From an uncultured Gammaproteobacteria bacterium (lineage in GTDB: Bacteria > Patescibacteriota > Patescibacteriia > 2-12-FULL-60-25), in assembly GCA_964437285.1 (NCBI GenBank), contig CAYTGF010000002.1, positions 3,543 through 67,542 of the forward strand: DNA of 64,000 bases. The letters are read 5' to 3'. Positions 13,420 to 33,743 of this stretch are shown here, piece after piece. The first letter of the stretch is position 1. Every line of letters starts with the position of its first letter. Both the position numbers and the translations under genes were made by a program. Under the pieces are notes generated by a model that worked only from the letters and a program-made list of their open reading frames with translations, made no database searches and was not told where the DNA came from.

Positions 13420-13743
13420 ATGCCCAGCACATTCTGGTTCTTCTTCGACACAAGCGAGCGCATCGAGGCGCTCAAGGCGATCCGGGAGTTCTGGTACCTC
13501 GCTGATCCTTCCGGTCCGCCATTCGGAAGCCCGTCGGAGCTCGACTAGCCCGAGTTCTGGGCTCAGAATCTGACGCACGGCGCCTTCCGAACCCGCCTGG
13601 TGCCGGAGCGGCATCAGCTCACCGTCTTCCTGACCATCTACAGCCGATACAGGAAGTTCACCTCAGCAGAGGTGGAGCTGCTGCGCCAGATCCCTTCCCT
13701 GCTCATTCGGTTGGAGAACCCCGACAGGCACTCCAAAGAATAG
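13420..13743 (+). pseudogene. family A copy 2 interrupted by an in-frame TAG at 13546-13548
   Basis: AGGAG 7 nt upstream of ATG 13420. The 107-codon frame aligns end to end with 12796..13116 (FWFFFDTSERIEALKAIREFW vs LFLFFPPDQREAALLAIRDLW). Codon 43 is TAG. A terminator follows. Confidence 0.5.
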
Positions 13744-13746
13744 CCT

Positions 13747-13774
13747 CCCCGATGATGATTCATCGGGGATTTTC
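13747..13774 (+). terminator. intrinsic terminator
   Basis: CCCCGATGA-TGAT-TCATCGGGG hairpin plus ATTTTC. Confidence 0.65.
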
Positions 13775-13786
13775 TATGCGAGAATA

Positions 13787-13815
13787 TTGACAAAATGAGT
13801 GATTGTAGGTACAAA
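13787..13815 (+). promoter_or_regulatory. sigma70-type promoter
   Basis: TTGACA (13787-13792), 17-nt spacer, TACAAA (13810-13815). Confidence 0.55.
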
Positions 13816-13844
13816 CATTCAGTTCTTTTCCCCAGGAGACACCC

Positions 13845-14765
13845 ATGAAGAACGCCCTCAAGAACCTGTTCCAGTCGGCAACACGGAACGCCATTCGAGC
13901 GCTTCCCGACACGGTACTCCTCCATCTGATCGCCATCCGCGATGCCTGGCAGCCGCGCTCCAAGGTCACCGTGTCCGAGGTGGTGGGCGGAGATGTCCTT
14001 CGACCTGACCAGAACGGCCGGCACACGATCGAGTTCTGGACCCAACAAAGCGACCAGGGCGACCCCGTCAAGAAGAACCGCGTCGTTCTCAACCTGACGC
14101 ACAAGGTGATCGATTTCAGCCAGACGAGATACCCCTACCTCCATGACCGCCACCCAGAGGAAGGCCTCGCGGGCTGGGCGCTGGAAGGATCTCTGGTACT
14201 GCGTGCCCTTCAACCCGTGTTCGACCTTCGCCAGAAGCACCTCAACCAACTCGAGACGCGTGCACAGGCGGAGACCGGAACCGATGCACGGACGGCCGCC
14301 TTTCAGCGAGCGCTTTGCGCGCAACTGAGCGACGAGGTACGAGAAGCGTTCCTGCTCTGCCAAGGGAATACCGATCGGTTCATGGATCGTGTCAAGCGGT
14401 GCACCGATGGCGATGAGGCGCGTGCCCTGCTGCAAGAGTGCGACCGCGCCCCTGCGCCGAGCTACCGGTCCGCCGAGTTCAAGCCGCACATCGAAGAGCT
14501 GCGCTGGATCCATCCCTGCGGCCTCGAAATTGCGCGAGCGGTGCTGACGTACCCTCGACATCCAGCGGGCTGCCGCACCAATCCCGAGGTGCTCATTCAG
14601 CTCAGGATCGGCGAGTCCGGCGAAGTCTTCTTCGAGGACTTCGAGCGTCACAACAGCGTCGAAGAGGCGAACGCACAGGGGCTGATCGGAGTCTATCGGG
14701 ACACGCTTCCGCATCATCCGCAAGACGACAAGCTCAACCCCTTCGCCGACGACATCCCGGCCTGA
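13845..14765 (+). CDS. hypothetical protein
   Basis: 306 aa. AGGAG upstream, promoter and terminator on the + strand. The longer opposite-strand ORF 13638..14768 has antisense-type L/R/V/G-rich composition. Confidence 0.6.
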   Translation: MKNALKNLFQSATRNAIRALPDTVLLHLIAIRDAWQPRSKVTVSEVVGGDVLRPDQNGRHTIEFWTQQSDQGDPVKKNRVVLNLTHKVIDFSQTRYPYLHDRHPEEGLAGWALEGSLVLRALQPVFDLRQKHLNQLETRAQAETGTDARTAAFQRALCAQLSDEVREAFLLCQGNTDRFMDRVKRCTDGDEARALLQECDRAPAPSYRSAEFKPHIEELRWIHPCGLEIARAVLTYPRHPAGCRTNPEVLIQLRIGESGEVFFEDFERHNSVEEANAQGLIGVYRDTLPHHPQDDKLNPFADDIPA

Positions 14766-14769
14766 CACA

Positions 14770-14793
14770 CCCCGCTCATTGAACGGGGTTTTT
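14770..14793 (+). terminator. intrinsic terminator
   Basis: CCCCG-loop-CGGGG hairpin plus T5. Confidence 0.6.
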
Positions 14794-14801
14794 CTTTTGG
14801 G

Positions 14802-14836
14802 TAAGAATCCTTTTTATGGAGTTTTGTGAAGACTCC
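14802..14836. repeat. degenerate half-copy of the TAAGGAATC-type element end
   Basis: TAAGAATCC + TTTTTAT + hairpin GGAGT-TTTGTGAAG-ACTCC, the same layout as the left ends of elements A-D. Confidence 0.35.
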
Positions 14837-14841
14837 CAGCT

Positions 14842-14899
14842 GCGTAACACAAAACCGGCTTTAGGGCCGGTTTTGGGGTGGTGCAGCGGCTGGGAATCG
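14842..14899. repeat. 58-bp direct repeat copy 1 (tRNA-Lys 3' 21 nt plus its terminator)
   Basis: Identical to 14980..15037 except one G/C difference. Confidence 0.85.
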
Positions 14900-14979
14900 C
14901 CTCGCTGACCGCTCGGACCTGGGCGCACATAGATTTACTCACACGGTGAGTTCGATATGCGCCCGTTCGATTGCTAGTC

Positions 14980-15037
14980 GCGTAACACAAAACCGGCTTT
15001 AGGGCCGGTTTTGGCGTGGTGCAGCGGCTGGGAATCG
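14980..15037. repeat. 58-bp direct repeat copy 2 (overlaps the genuine tRNA-Lys 3' end)
   Basis: 57/58 match to 14842..14899. Confidence 0.85.
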
Positions 15038-15092
15038 TACCCAGAACCTTGGGCTTAAGAGGCCCCTGCTCTACCGATTGAGCTACCGCTGC
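15017..15092 (-). tRNA. tRNA-Lys (anticodon CTT)
   Basis: Hand-folded cloverleaf GCAGCGG..GCTC-AATCGGTA-GAGC..CTCTTAA..CTGGG-TACGATT-CCCAG-CCGCTGC-ACCA. Encoded CCA. T-loop reads TAC instead of TTC, with one G-A mismatch at the base of the anticodon stem. Confidence 0.8.
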
Positions 15093-17616: not shown

Positions 17617-17638
17617 GGTCCGGAGTTGACTCCGGACC
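17617..17638. repeat. GGTCCGGAG-N4-CTCCGGACC hairpin (family member 1)
   Basis: Near-identical 27-nt block GGTCCGGAGTnnACTCCGGACCATTTT also occurs at 33165..33191. Confidence 0.7.
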
Positions 17639-28927: not shown

Positions 28928-28945
28928 ACAAAAAGGTACAAAAAA

Positions 28946-28970
28946 CATCCAACAAACGTTGGATGTTTTT
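28946..28970 (+). terminator. intrinsic terminator
   Basis: CATCCAAC-AAAC-GTTGGATG hairpin plus T5. Confidence 0.75.
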
Positions 28971-28983
28971 ATTTTTGCTTAGA

Positions 28984-29155
28984 ATAAGGAATCTTTTCTT
29001 ATTTTTTATAGCTCGCTTCGCTCGCTATAGGTTTATACACGCATGAGATACAAGCGACCATTATTAAAAGATGCCTGGCACGTGCCAGGCACCTTGAAAC
29101 CACAACATGAAGCCGAGCGAAGTGAGGCTTCAGAAAAAAGAAAAAAGATTCCTTA
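28984..29155. mobile_element. MITE-like non-coding element, copy A
   Basis: TIRs ATAAGGAATCTTTTCTT / AAGAAAAAAGATTCCTTA. Hairpins at 29007-29029 and 29109-29131. Central palindrome TGCCTGGCAC|GTGCCAGGCA at 29072-29091. Confidence 0.6.
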
Positions 29156-29181: not shown

Positions 29182-29190
29182 TGCTATACT
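29182..29190 (+). promoter_or_regulatory. extended -10 (TGcTATACT) 6 nt upstream of the tkt ATG (leaderless geometry)
   Basis: TGCTATACT-TCGTTC-ATG. Confidence 0.45.
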
Positions 29191-29196
29191 TCGTTC

Positions 29197-30051
29197 ATGC
29201 GCTCTTTATCGATTCAAGAACTCGAACTCATGGCGAATACGATTCGTCAGGATATTATTAAAGCGCTTGTTCGCGCCACGAGTGGGCATTCTGCGGGACC
29301 GCTTGGCATGGCGGACATTTTCACTGCCCTCTACTTCCATATTTTACATATTGATCCAAAGAACCCAACGCTTCCGGATCGCGATCGTCTCGTACTCTCA
29401 AACGCACACATCTGCCCGGTATTGTATGCAACCCTGGCTCGGCGTGGGTTTTGCTCCGTGGATGCATTTCATCAAACCCTTCGCGCCTTCGGATCGCCAT
29501 TCCAAGGACATTCAAACAACCACTTTGGCATTGGCATAGAAACATGCGGCGGCCCACTCGGACAAGGAATCTCGCAGGCCGTAGGGATGGCGTACGCTGC
29601 AAAAATGGATCGCGCTCGCTGGCGAACCTACTGCCTGATGGGTGATGGCGAACTCAATGAGGGCCAATGCTGGGAAGCGTTTTTGTTCGCAGGAAAAGCG
29701 AAGCTCCATCAACTTACCGTTATTATTGATCGAAACAATATTCAAATCGATGGCTTTACCGAAAGCGTTATGCCCCTCGAACCACTCGAAGAAAAACTCG
29801 AAGCGTTCGGGTTTCACGTGATCGAGGTCGATGGTCATAACATGCGCAGAGTGATTGATGCACTAGAAGAAGCTCAGGCGGTGTATGAACGTCCTACCGC
29901 TATTATCGCGCACACCATCCCAGGGAAGGGCGTGAGTTTTATGGAGGCCGATTTTACCTGGCACGGAAAACCTCCCGATGACGCCCAAGCACGACGTGCC
30001 CTCCACGAACTGCGAACCCTTGCCGGCGCCATAGAATCCGAACACGAATAA
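29197..30051 (+). CDS. transketolase, N-terminal (TPP-binding) subunit
   Basis: GHSAGPLGMADIF, GDGELNEGQCWEA motifs. The track start at 29107 lies inside element A. Confidence 0.9.
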   Translation: MRSLSIQELELMANTIRQDIIKALVRATSGHSAGPLGMADIFTALYFHILHIDPKNPTLPDRDRLVLSNAHICPVLYATLARRGFCSVDAFHQTLRAFGSPFQGHSNNHFGIGIETCGGPLGQGISQAVGMAYAAKMDRARWRTYCLMGDGELNEGQCWEAFLFAGKAKLHQLTVIIDRNNIQIDGFTESVMPLEPLEEKLEAFGFHVIEVDGHNMRRVIDALEEAQAVYERPTAIIAHTIPGKGVSFMEADFTWHGKPPDDAQARRALHELRTLAGAIESEHE

Positions 30052-31568: not shown

Positions 31569-31787
31569 TAAGGAATCTTTTCTTATTTTTCACCGCCTCG
31601 CTTCGCTCGGCTGTGATTATTTACTCTAACGCAACCACCCTCTCAAACCAGCCAAGCAAAGCGAGGCTAAAAAAGCATTTCACCTCCCAATTAAACCAGC
31701 CGAGCGAAGGCGTTATGGCATGCGCCATTCTTTCTTCAACCCAGCCGAGCGTAGCGAGGCTGTAAAGAAAGAAAAGATTATTCCTTA
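31569..31787. mobile_element. MITE-like non-coding element, copy B
   Basis: TIRs TAAGGAATCTTTTCTT / AAGAAAAGATTATTCCTTA. One forward and three reverse GAGCGAAG-type units. The right end overlaps the last codons and stop of 31778..32365. Confidence 0.55.
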
Positions 31788-33087: not shown

Positions 33088-33315
33088 TAAGGAATCTATG
33101 TTTTTTTCATGGCTCGCTTCGCTCGCCATGGGTTTATAGAGAAAACAGCTCGTATAGAGAAGGTGGTCCGGAGTGAACTCCGGACCATTTTAAAGATAGC
33201 TAAACAAGAGACGAACGAAGTGAGTCTCTTATAAAAAAGCACGATTCCTTAGATGTGTGGATACCCGAGAGACAAGCGAAGCGAGTCTCTCAAGAAAAAG
33301 AAAAGAGATTCCTTA
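33088..33315. mobile_element. MITE-like non-coding element, copy C
   Basis: TIRs TAAGGAATCTATGTTTTT / AAGAAAAGAGATTCCTTA. Forward hairpin at 33108-33130, central GGTCCGGAG hairpin at 33164-33187, reverse hairpins at 33207-33229 and 33267-33291. Confidence 0.6.
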
Positions 33316-33501: not shown

Positions 33502-33743
33502 TAAGGAGTTTTTCTATTTTTTTATGGCTCGCTTCGCTCGCCATGGGTTTATGTGGAAAAGGTGCCAGGCACGTGCCTGGCACGTGCCTGGCACCTTTTC
33601 CACATGAGAAACGAGGCAAGCGATACAGATATACGAGAGACGAACGAAGTGAGTCTCTCAAAAAAGAAACGAGAGTCCTTAGCTGTATGGATACACAAAA
33701 GACGAGCGAAGCGAGGCTCTCAAAATAGAAAGAGAATTCCTTA
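33502..33743. mobile_element. MITE-like non-coding element, copy D
   Basis: TIRs TAAGGAGTTTTTCTATTTT / AAAATAGAAAGAGAATTCCTTA. Forward hairpin at 33524-33544, 55-nt palindrome, reverse hairpin at 33635-33659 plus a further unit near 33700. Confidence 0.6.
33551..33605. repeat. 55-nt perfect palindrome
   Basis: ATGTGGAAAAGGTGCCAGGCACGTGCC-T-GGCACGTGCCTGGCACCTTTTCCACAT. 27-nt arms checked base by base. Confidence 0.9.

What the first reader, a model, noticed from the sequence alone, without database searches (positions are those of the whole stretch)
29007..29131. Covarying hairpin stems around a conserved 11-nt loop TCGCTTCGCTC (tandem TCGCT)
The repeat units share a nearly invariant loop: TCGCTTCGCTC in forward units, and GAGCGAAG(C/T)GA in reverse units. 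The flanking stems differ in sequence but stay complementary. Forward examples: TATAGC/GCTATA (29007-29029), CATGGC/GCCATG (33108-33130), ATGGC/GCCAT (33524-33544). Reverse examples: GAAGCC/GGCTTC (29109-29131), AGAGAC/GTCTCT (33207-33229), GAGAGAC/GTCTCTC (33267-33291 and 33635-33659), CAGCC/GGCTG (31742-31762). Compensatory stem changes with a fixed loop are the signature of selection on structure. The loop would then be a recognition determinant, either of an ssDNA hairpin (as in REP/RAYT or IS200/IS605 ends) or of an RNA motif.
Basis: seen in the sequence. Interest (0 to 1): 0.6.

Follow-up and report, generated by a model that had tools for sequence, protein, structure and literature searches.

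The report
Mini-hairpin-capped repeat family in CPR genome
A roughly 55-base DNA unit occurs about 150 times in this 1.2-Mb ultra-small bacterial genome: its hairpin stem varies freely but stays paired, and the hairpin ends in a fixed, self-folding 11-base tip. It looks like a runaway non-coding offshoot of the arms of a widespread recombinase element, and it is a clean case of selection on DNA shape rather than sequence.

Summary
The genome holds about 150 units of the form TAAGGAAT box, ~14-nt T-rich spacer, 5-8-bp variable stem, TCGCTTCGCTC, complementary stem.

- **Covariation.** In 148 units chosen without regard to the stem, stem pairs 1-5 are Watson-Crick in 93-97% of copies, against 30-40% expected at the variable positions. 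All four pair types occur.
- **The "loop" is not a loop.** Positions 3/9 covary (GC in 95 distinct units, AT in 24). Positions 1/11 and 2/10 become Watson-Crick in variants. On the purine strand the core reads GA-GC-GNA-GC-GA, which contains the extraordinarily stable DNA mini-hairpin d(GCGAAGC).
- **Arrangement.** Units sit mostly as inward-facing inverted pairs (MITE/REPIN-like mosaics). They lie in intergenic DNA, often just after terminators.
- **Origin.** The same box, spacing and hairpin form the inverted arms of a widespread, apparently undescribed tRNA-targeting large serine recombinase element of Patescibacteria. This genome has 101 copies of the 13-mer; 460 related genomes have 0-15.
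- **REP/RAYT.** The genome's single RAYT-like gene is flanked by a different palindrome, so that reading is not supported.

The hairpin's function is inferred, not shown. I favour a DNA hairpin or cruciform module of recombination arms.

The parts
28985..29155 (.). Element A: two-armed mosaic element. Left box, hairpin, central palindrome, reverse hairpin, right box. It lies between a terminator (28941-28970) and the promoter of the transketolase-like gene.
   Evidence: Absent from the orthologous intergenic region of three genomes of the same genus: 54-77 bp there against 253 bp here.
28985..28992 (+). Box TAAGGAAT of the left arm of element A.
   Evidence: The box lies 28-31 nt before the core in 103 of 155 units.
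29007..29029 (+). Hairpin TATAGC / TCGCTTCGCTC / GCTATA (pyrimidine core on the + strand).
29070..29093 (.). Central palindrome GATGCCTGGCACGTGCCAGGCACC, a second palindrome family that serves as cargo of the elements.
   Evidence: about 15-18 copies in the genome, mostly within 100 nt of a hairpin unit.
29109..29131 (-). Reverse hairpin GAAGCC / GAGCGAAGTGA / GGCTTC. On the + (purine) strand, core positions 3/9 form G.T.
29148..29155 (-). Box of the right arm of element A (ATTCCTTA on the + strand).
31569..31787 (.). Element B.
- Left box: 31569-31576.
- Forward hairpin: 31591-31615, core 31598-31608, one stem mismatch.
- Degenerate reverse unit: 31649-31668.
- Reverse hairpin: 31742-31762, core GAGCGTAGCGA.
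- Right box: 31780-31787.
33088..33315 (.). Element C.
- Left box: 33088-33095.
- Forward hairpin: 33108-33130.
- REP1-type palindrome: 33164-33187.
- Reverse hairpin: 33207-33229, core GAACGAAGTGA, with its own box at 33244-33251.
- Reverse hairpin: 33267-33291, core AAGCGAAGCGA.
- Right box: 33308-33315.
33502..33743 (.). Element D.
- Left box: TAAGGAGT, 33502-33509.
- Forward hairpin: 33524-33544.
- Long palindrome: 33561-33595.
- Reverse hairpin: 33635-33659, core GAACGAAGTGA, with its box at 33674-33681.
- Reverse unit: core 33704-33714, imperfect stem.
- Right box: 33736-33743.

Best explanation
**What it is (shown).** The hairpins are the structural core of a ~55-nt repeat unit: TAAGGAAT box, ~14-nt T-rich spacer, 5-8-bp stem of free sequence, TCGCTTCGCTC, complementary stem.
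- About 150 units lie in 84 intergenic clusters of a 1.18-Mb Patescibacteria genome.
- Most clusters are inward-facing inverted pairs of 110-440 bp with other palindromes in between. They are MITE/REPIN-like mosaic elements.
- They are enriched between convergent genes and just downstream of terminators.

**The centre is a helix, not a loop (shown by covariation).** On the purine strand the 11 nt read GA-GC-GNA-GC-GA. That is two tandem G.A mismatches stacked on the d(GCGNAGC) mini-hairpin. The whole unit is therefore a rod of about 11 stacked pairs with a triloop.

**Origin (inferred from shared anatomy).** The unit is a non-autonomous derivative of the inverted arm of the tRNA-3'-end-targeting large serine recombinase (LSR) elements that are widespread in Patescibacteria. 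Those arms carry the same box next to the tRNA CCA end, the same 30-nt box-to-core distance and the same hairpin. The family expanded massively only in this lineage.

**How it works (inferred, not shown).** The hairpin acts at the DNA level, as an extruded hairpin or cruciform, or as a fold of transiently single-stranded DNA. The mini-hairpin cap would nucleate folding. The arm needs this shape during recombination or mobilisation, for architecture or for marking the arm for the recombinase or a host factor. Only pairing and the cap are constrained, so stems drift through compensated changes.
For: **Structure and covariation.**
- Stem covariation.
- Inner pair 3/9: GC 95, AU 24.
- Mismatch positions 1/11 and 2/10 become Watson-Crick in the GAGCTTCGCTC variant (6 copies) and in arm L111.
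- Triloop changes concentrate on the middle base: 15 changes there, against 5 and 0 at the outer positions, as expected for GNA.
- Review PMC13037366: d(GCGNAGC) melts at 70-76 C, is far more stable than the RNA form, and occurs at the phage G4 origin, ssiA and phage N4 promoters.

**Arrangement.**
- 84 clusters, dominated by the +- layout and never a lone -+.
- The two arms of a pair almost always carry different stems. Local hairpins are therefore conserved, not just arm-to-arm pairing.

**Link to LSR arms.**
- The pattern scan finds box plus hairpin in many CPR lineages.
- In L030 two copies form perfect 88-bp inverted repeats around a 440-aa Resolvase+Recombinase+Zn-ribbon protein, ending at a tRNA CCA.
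- More than 563 related loci exist.
- The box-to-core distance is 30 nt in arms and 28-31 nt here.
- Divergent arms keep the architecture outer stem-GA-inner stem-triloop-GA-outer stem, with in-frame length changes.

**Lineage-specific expansion.**
- 101 copies of the 13-mer here, against 0-7 in 60 relatives and 0-15 in 400 genomes of the phylum.
- Empty orthologous site in three genomes of the genus.

**Constraint within copies.** Inside subfamilies, deviation from the consensus is 0-10% in box, stem and core, against 40-70% in flanks.

**No transcription polarity.**
Against: - No close autonomous element is found in this assembly. It is 96.7% complete in 71 contigs. It holds only a 32%-identical LSR at tRNA-Pro, whose arm has a similar box but a different hairpin.
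- Similarity to LSR arms is limited to the box, the spacing and the 22-24-nt hairpin.
- Units here never abut a tRNA CCA end, and no target duplication was seen. The insertion chemistry is therefore unproven.
- The hairpin centre lies about 45 nt from the presumed crossover. That is outside the ~25-bp half-site that known LSRs contact (established knowledge of phage LSR att sites).
- The same 11-nt cap occurs in unrelated repeat families of many phyla. The cap alone is not evidence of descent from LSR arms.
- Wobble statistics do not single out one strand: G.T 12 against A.C 6 at pairs 1-5.
- No copy pair is more than 94% identical. Recent mobility is not shown.
Confidence: 0.55

Rival explanations
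1. REP/REPIN substrate of the genome's RAYT-like Y1 (HUH) transposase. The hairpin would be bound as single-stranded DNA and cut next to the stem, as for REP/RAYT or IS200/IS605 ends.
For: - One Y1_Tnp gene passes the Pfam cut-off, at 56 bits.
- Units form inverted doublets like REPINs.
- A DNA mini-hairpin cap suits a single-strand mechanism.
- 16 of the 25 REP1 palindromes lie inside the arm-bounded elements, so the two systems are physically mixed.
Against: - The RAYT gene is flanked on both sides by GGTCCGGAGTCGACTCCGGACC, not by core hairpins.
- The nearest core unit on that contig is about 49 kb away.
- In five other genomes with hairpins of this core, only 1 of 12 Y1 loci has such a hairpin within 1.5 kb.
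- IS200/IS605 ends are not inverted repeats.
Confidence: 0.1
2. Host-level RNA or transcription element. It would be an extra terminator or insulator, an mRNA 3'-end stabiliser as described for E. coli REP, or a small RNA, kept by selection for the cell.
For: - Clusters are enriched between convergent genes: 33 of 83, against 20% background.
- 33 of 108 outer ends lie within 60 nt of a terminator-like hairpin with a T tail, against 8.4% in controls.
- Box, stem and core are conserved in place while flanks decay, and no autonomous partner is present.
- A whole element folds strongly as RNA: -69.7 kcal/mol, z = -8.6.
Against: - The hairpins are not followed by a T run. The T run precedes them, so the terminator scan does not call them.
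- There is no orientation bias in one-sided clusters: 22 against 17 on the box side, 25 against 15 on the hairpin side.
- No Rfam match.
- The family is absent from eight genomes of the same genus, which is odd for a needed host function.
- The cap is a DNA-specific stable fold.
Confidence: 0.2
3. No selection on the stem. Complementarity would be kept mechanically, by hairpin-templated correction of quasi-palindromes (intra-strand template switching during replication). Covariation would then be a mutational by-product in selfish or decaying repeats.
For: - Single-mismatch intermediates exist at every pair, 3-8 per 148 copies.
- A stable cap would favour hairpin extrusion.
- The REP1 palindromes of the same genome also show variable but complementary outer extensions such as AAAAC/GTTTT and AAAAG/CTTTT.
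- Another family, in relative G009, also shows variable outer stems around a fixed centre.
Against: - It does not explain why the non-palindromic cap and the box stay nearly invariant (0-10% deviation) while neighbouring bases change in 40-70% of copies.
- It does not explain why divergent LSR arms keep the hairpin through in-frame insertions.
- It still requires that the hairpin forms in vivo.
Confidence: 0.15

Closest known systems
REP / REPIN elements mobilised by RAYT (Y1 HUH transposases)
   Same: Short intergenic palindromes at more than 100 copies. They form inverted doublets, often lie at gene 3' ends, and expand in single lineages.
   Different: The genome's RAYT is flanked by another palindrome. 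REP stems are conserved within a family, whereas here stems vary and the cap is fixed. There is an extra box and T-run module.
MITEs such as Neisseria Correia elements or Rickettsia RPEs
   Same: Non-coding, 110-440 bp, bounded by inverted arms, multi-copy, and related to the arms of a gene-carrying element.
   Different: No target-site duplication was seen. No autonomous partner is in the same genome. The related autonomous element uses a serine recombinase, not a DDE transposase. Single arms also occur alone and in tandem.
BIMEs of E. coli and NIMEs of Neisseria (mosaic intergenic repeat clusters)
   Same: A mosaic of several palindrome families is packed into intergenic regions after terminators.
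   Different: The motif families differ. Here the outer modules resemble recombinase attachment arms.
Attachment sites of large serine recombinases, and the tRNA-targeting LSR element of Patescibacteria noted by earlier agents of this scan
   Same: Same terminal AGGAA-type box next to the crossover, same spacing, same hairpin with the GAGCGAAGCGA core. The arms occur as inverted copies.
   Different: Units here are not at tRNA ends and carry no recombinase. Their spacer is T-rich. Known LSR att sites (phiC31, Bxb1, A118) have no such hairpin.
Integron attC sites
   Same: Structure is conserved while the stem sequence varies, and the site is recognised as folded DNA.
   Different: No R/L core sites, no extrahelical bases, no IntI, and no cassette array.
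d(GCGAAGC)/d(GCGNAGC) mini-hairpins at the phage G4 origin, plasmid ssiA and phage N4 promoters
   Same: Exact GCGAAGC heptamer, with GNA variants (GTA, GCA, GGA), capping a longer stem.
   Different: Here the cap is embedded between tandem G.A mismatches in a dispersed chromosomal repeat. No primase or RNA polymerase link has been shown.

Membership tests
REP/REPIN-RAYT | A single-copy RAYT (Y1_Tnp) gene is flanked by the REP sequences it mobilises. | tested here: not met
   The RAYT-like gene at G000:C1:3828-4160 is flanked by GGTCCGGAGTCGACTCCGGACC palindromes. No core hairpin lies within about 49 kb.
REP/REPIN-RAYT | Short imperfect palindromes, highly repeated, often as inverted doublets in intergenic DNA. 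| tested here: met
   155 hairpins in 84 clusters. The +- layout dominates, and clusters lie in intergenic DNA.
IS200/IS605 ends | Subterminal hairpins on the same strand at both ends, no inverted terminal repeats, and tnpA/tnpB between them. | tested here: not met
   The arms are inverted copies and no gene lies between them.
MITE | Short non-coding element bounded by terminal inverted repeats, in many copies. | tested here: met
   34 two-armed elements of 110-594 bp with box-to-box inverted ends. The inverted repeat often extends 8-9 nt beyond the box.
MITE | Target-site duplication at the ends. | tested here: not met
   No direct repeat is seen at the 34 elements. Empty sites in relatives are too diverged to place the exact joints.
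MITE | An autonomous element with the same ends is in the same genome. | tested here: not met
   The genome holds only a 32%-identical LSR without these arms. Autonomous elements with matching box, spacing and hairpin exist in other Patescibacteria.
Arm of the tRNA-targeting LSR element | AGGAA-type box at the joint, with a hairpin of GAGCGAAGCGA core about 30 nt from the box start. | tested here: met
   Distance of 30 nt in L066, L077, L084, L104 and L134, against 28-31 nt in 103 units here. The 22-24-nt hairpin is identical for the GTCGCC subfamily.
Arm of the tRNA-targeting LSR element | The arm abuts the CCA end of a tRNA gene, with a recombinase gene between the arms. | tested here: not met
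   None of the 46 tRNAs is abutted. Five have a unit 30-50 nt downstream, after the tRNA's terminator. No gene lies between the arms.
Intrinsic terminator | GC-rich stem, loop of 3-8 nt, followed by a T run. | tested here: not met
   The T run precedes the hairpin, and the scan does not call the units.
Known RNA families (Rfam 15) | Match to a covariance model. | tested here: not met
   Only the two tRNAs pass the gathering scores. Nothing matches at the hairpins.
Integron attC | R''-L''/L'-R' core sites, an adjacent integron integrase and a cassette array. | not tested
   No search for IntI was run. The motif has no GTTRRRY core, as read from the sequences.
d(GCGNAGC) mini-hairpin | GC/GC closing pairs with a G-N-A triloop, where the middle base is free. 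| tested here: met
   Purine-strand triloops:
- GAA in about 125 units.
- GTA in 9.
- GCA in about 5.
- GGA in 1.
- AAA in about 5.
The 3' A never changes. Physical folding is not testable here.

The most novel reading that the evidence does not exclude
The cap GA-GC-GNA-GC-GA would be a pan-bacterial DNA folding module. It would be the natural, in-vivo use of the d(GCGNAGC) mini-hairpin to nucleate hairpin or cruciform extrusion, recruited again and again by unrelated repeats.

The repeats that carry it include:
- arms of serine-recombinase elements in Patescibacteria;
- a second palindrome family in relative G009;
- REPIN-like GTCATYYC...GRRATGAC doublets in at least a dozen phyla.

In this genome the ~150 units would be held in place by selection, not only as relics of transposition. 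They would therefore serve the cell or an ongoing DNA transaction.
Probability: 0.3. Interest if true: 0.8.

Novelty: new variant of a known kind. Interest (0 to 1): 0.62.

Why it matters
- **Selection on shape.** The family gives an unusually clean natural data set: about 150 paralogous copies and more than 50 stem variants, showing selection on nucleic-acid shape with a fixed cap.
- **A reduced genome with a repeat burst.** A strongly reduced CPR genome tolerates, or uses, a burst of structured repeats. That bears on how these genomes evolve and on why their assemblies break.
- **A link to an undescribed mobile element.** The family ties a dispersed repeat to the arms of an abundant, apparently undescribed serine-recombinase element. 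It predicts that a hairpin is a working part of those arms. No characterised serine recombinase site has such a part, to my knowledge.
- **A natural context for a test-tube curiosity.** The d(GCGAAGC) mini-hairpin gets a genome-scale natural context that can be tested directly with oligonucleotides, plasmids and recombination assays.

Tried and rejected
- **Consensus fold of LSR arms.** I replaced it by per-sequence folds.
- **Wider homology to LSR arms.** blastn of whole LSR arms against the genome found only the 20-24-nt hairpin.
- **Target-site duplications.** None seen at 34 two-armed elements.
- **REP/RAYT.** Rejected after reading the RAYT flanks and after checking Y1 loci in five other genomes.
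- **Terminator reading.** Rejected on anatomy.
- **Shine-Dalgarno or small-ORF reading of the box plus the ATG in CATGGC stems.** Rejected. The spacing is about 18 nt and most stem families have no ATG.
- **Strand choice from wobble pairs.** G.T against A.C was inconclusive, 12 against 6.
- **The genome's own LSR as the autonomous partner.** It sits at tRNA-Pro with a similar box (AAGGAAATCTCCTTGCAAG) but has no inverted arms of this type and a different hairpin. It stays a candidate for trans action only.
- **Literature.** Searches for the motif, for MITEs in Patescibacteria and for CPR serine recombinases found no description.

Full report
**1. The observation**

In the window, TCGCTTCGCTC with up to one mismatch occurs 13 times. 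Dinucleotide shuffles give 3.2 +/- 1.8, and none of 100 shuffles reaches 13.

The window lies in a 1.18-Mb assembly of 71 contigs. I did not verify the name.

Genome-wide counts:
- There are 110 exact cores, 78 of them flanked by at least four contiguous Watson-Crick pairs.
- With up to two core mismatches there are 155 such hairpins, carrying 57 different stem strings.

**2. A test that does not select on the stem**

Upstream of most cores lies a box, TAAGGAAT, followed by a T-rich spacer. The box starts 28-31 nt before the core in 103 of 155 units.

I selected units by box and core only, which gives 148 units.
- Stem pairs 1-5 are Watson-Crick in 144, 140, 137, 138 and 138 copies.
- Column composition predicts 142, 45, 114, 60 and 46.
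- Pair 2 uses all four types: CG 47, AT 45, GC 41, TA 7.

On the 121 distinct sequences (alignment A3), the count of structure pairs gives the following.
- 91.5% of cells are paired, against 64.5% in shuffles.
- 303 cells have changes on both sides, against 108 in shuffles.
- 0 of 500 shuffles reach either value.
- Sliding the 3' partner by 1-3 columns gives at most 45% paired.

Copies are related, so cells are not independent events. Even so, more than 50 stem variants, and compensated changes inside every subfamily, leave no doubt that pairing is maintained.

**3. The "loop" is a helix with a triloop**

- **Pair 3/9.** The second commonest core is TCACTTCGTTC, with 39 copies against 78 of the main form. 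It differs at positions 3 and 9, turning a G-C pair into A-T. Over the distinct sequences this pair is GC 95, AU 24, other 2.
- **Pairs 1/11 and 2/10.** Six copies carry GAGCTTCGCTC. There positions 1/11 and 2/10, normally T.C and C.T (G.A and A.G on the other strand), become G-C and A-T.
- **Triloop.** Changes fall mainly on the middle base: 15 there, against 5 and 0 at the outer positions.

On the purine strand the core therefore reads GA-GC-GNA-GC-GA. That is the heptamer d(GCGAAGC) and its GNA variants, on top of two tandem G.A mismatches.

A 2026 review states that d(GCGNAGC) forms an extraordinarily stable mini-hairpin, with Tm of 70-76 C. It adds that the DNA form is much more stable than the RNA form. 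It also notes that such caps occur at the phage G4 origin, at ssiA and in phage N4 hairpin promoters (PMC13037366).

ViennaRNA with DNA parameters predicts the inner two pairs on both strands. It does not model the special stability.

**4. Arrangement and context**

The 155 hairpins fall into 84 clusters.
- Inward-facing pairs (+-) are the commonest layout: 28 clusters, plus 15 with extra units.
- 34 clusters are one-sided.
- No cluster is a lone outward-facing pair.
- The two arms of a pair nearly always carry different stems, for example CATGGC with GAGAGAC.

As one RNA strand, a whole element is predicted to fold arm against arm (-69.7 kcal/mol, z = -8.6). What evolution keeps, however, is each local hairpin.

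Between the arms lie other palindromes.
- GGTCCGGAGTNNACTCCGGACC has 25 copies, 16 of them within 75 nt of a unit.
- GGTGCCAGGCACGTGCCTGGCACC has about 15-18 copies.

Location relative to genes (my gene calls are crude ORF picks):
- Clusters lie between convergent genes in 33 of 83 cases, against 20% of all intergenic regions.
- 33 of 108 outer ends lie within 60 nt of a terminator-like hairpin with a T tail, against 8.4% of random intergenic windows.
- 36% of boxes have a perfect hairpin of at least 6 bp ending 0-25 nt upstream, against 19% in controls.
- In the window, five of the eight element ends abut a terminator.
- Tandem units follow each other at a fixed 7-10 nt after the previous hairpin.
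- One-sided clusters show no polarity relative to neighbouring genes.

**5. Where the unit comes from**

A scan of one genome per species for box, 16-28 nt, then C-core-G returned 39 stretches, most from Patescibacteria of many lineages.

In L030 two copies form perfect 88-bp inverted repeats around a 440-aa protein with Resolvase, Recombinase and zinc-ribbon domains. The element ends one base after the CCA of tRNA-Glu.

More than 563 loci encode relatives at 68-90% identity. In these loci:
- the hairpin sits about 100 nt before the start codon, and again about 42 nt from the tRNA end;
- the two arms are identical within a locus but differ between loci;
- the right arm lies inside the open reading frame (..LVAERSEA..FPxW), which runs into the tRNA.

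Divergent arms replace the mini-stem by 5-8-bp stems with other triloops. They keep GA...GA and the outer stem, and all length changes are multiples of three (L091, L115, L117, L124). In L111 the mismatches are Watson-Crick. This is independent support for the structure proposed in section 3.

Earlier agents of this scan had described this recombinase element from other genomes and found no publication. My literature searches also found none.

The link to the units here rests on three shared features:
- the box;
- the 30-nt box-to-core distance;
- an identical 22-24-nt hairpin for the GTCGCC subfamily.

Nothing else is alignable between the arms and this genome.

**6. Lineage-specific burst, no visible driver**

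Copy numbers:
- The strict pattern occurs 56 times here and never in 40 relatives.
- The 13-mer CTCGCTTCGCTCG occurs 101 times here.
- It occurs 0-7 times in 60 relatives.
- It occurs 0-15 times in 400 evenly drawn genomes of the phylum, and 96 of those have at least one copy.

The site of element A is empty in three genomes of the same genus, with an intergenic region of 54-77 bp against 253 bp here.

The assembly holds no close relative of the recombinase. Its only LSR is 545 aa and 32% identical. It sits at the CCA end of tRNA-Pro(GGG). Its arm has a similar box (AAGGAAATCTCCTTGCAAG) but another hairpin and no inverted copy.

Other features that leave the mechanism open:
- Units never abut a tRNA end.
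- No target duplication is visible.
- The nearest-neighbour identity of arms has a median of 0.80 and a maximum of 0.94.
- Within subfamilies the box, stem and core deviate from the consensus in 0-10% of copies, but the spacer and flanks in 40-70%.

So the copies are not young, yet their functional-looking parts have not decayed. I cannot tell whether this reflects selection on each copy, gene conversion or turnover.

**7. The REP/RAYT idea**

The genome has one Y1 transposase gene (PF01797, 56 bits) with the HUH and Y motifs of RAYT-like proteins, as read from the translation.
- It is flanked on both sides by the GGTCCGGAG palindrome, not by core hairpins.
- The nearest core hairpin on that contig is about 49 kb away.

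That palindrome is the likely REP of this RAYT.

In five other genomes that carry hairpins with the same core, only one of 12 Y1 loci has such a hairpin within 1.5 kb.

**8. The cap is not private to this family**

- Relative G009 uses the same 13-mer in the centre of a different long palindrome, whose outer stems again vary and stay paired.
- Two other Patescibacteria genomes have hairpins (T)GTCAT-YYC GAGCGAAGCGA GRR-ATC with all four compensated stem versions.
- More than 120 stretches from other phyla carry the same hairpin type. The phyla include Acidobacteriota, Chloroflexota, Bacteroidota, Planctomycetota, Gemmatimonadota, Nitrospirota, Firmicutes and others, plus one archaeon.
- These hairpins often occur as inverted doublets 45-57 nt apart.
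- A 1.5-Mb termite-symbiont genome has 90 copies of the 11-mer.
- No Rfam family matches.

Hence the cap's conservation may owe more to what it does physically than to one recognising protein. By itself it is not proof of common descent.

**9. Verdict**

The finding is real. It marks a large, lineage-specific family of structured intergenic repeats whose closest relatives are the arms of an undescribed serine-recombinase element.

- **Shown:** the anatomy, the covariation, the structured cap, the distribution, and the failure of the RAYT test.
- **Inferred:** descent from LSR arms, action as folded DNA, and insertion next to hairpins.
- **Not known:** what moves the units now, and whether they serve the cell.

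Noticed in passing
G000:C1:3500-4320 (outside the window); window 33164-33187 and about 17617-17638: A RAYT-like Y1 transposase gene is flanked on both sides by GGTCCGGAGTCGACTCCGGACC palindromes. There are 25 copies genome-wide, 16 of them inside the arm-bounded elements. Their outer extensions also vary yet stay complementary (AAAAC/GTTTT, AAAAG/CTTTT, AAATC/GATTT).
   Followed up: partly
window 29070-29093 and 33561-33595: A third palindrome family, GGTGCC(A/T)GGCACGTGCC(T/A)GGCACC, has about 15-18 copies and lies mostly between the arms of the elements.
   Followed up: partly
L180-L299, L038, L041, L044, L163-L179: Hairpins (T)GTCAT-YYC GAGCGAAGCGA GRR-ATC carry the same 11-nt core in at least a dozen phyla, plus one archaeal bin. 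Their stems are compensated and they often form REPIN-like inverted doublets. There is no Rfam match, and I saw no Y1 gene next to them.
   Followed up: partly
L145-L151 (relative G009): Another palindromic family has a fixed ~35-nt centre (..GCTGCGGAACTCGCTTCGCTCGAGCAGTCCTCGC..). Its 12-15-bp outer stems differ completely between copies but stay paired.
   Followed up: no
G000:C7 about 13430-15070 (L064:1179-2871): A 545-aa large serine recombinase gene reads into the 3' end of tRNA-Pro(GGG). The arm after the CCA reads TCAAGGAAATCTCCTTGCAAG and then has a 10-bp hairpin (AAGTCGCTGA/TCAGCGACTT). This is the same architecture as the widespread element, but there is no inverted second arm.
   Followed up: partly
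L066-L141, about 2020-2160 in each: The recombinase reading frame continues through the right arm and the hairpin into the tRNA gene, with no stop of its own. Hairpin length variants are all in frame, so the hairpin is under both coding and structural constraint.
   Followed up: partly
window 29184-29201: The motif TGCTATACT lies 6 nt before the ATG of the transketolase-like gene and is conserved in four genomes of the genus. This suggests a leaderless or near-leaderless mRNA. The ORF start listed at 29107 lies inside the repeat and is probably not the real start.
   Followed up: no
L049 / G068 (termite symbiont, 1.5 Mb): About 90 copies of the 11-mer occur, partly in tandem arrays with a period of about 50 nt. 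This is an independent expansion of a hairpin with this cap.
   Followed up: no
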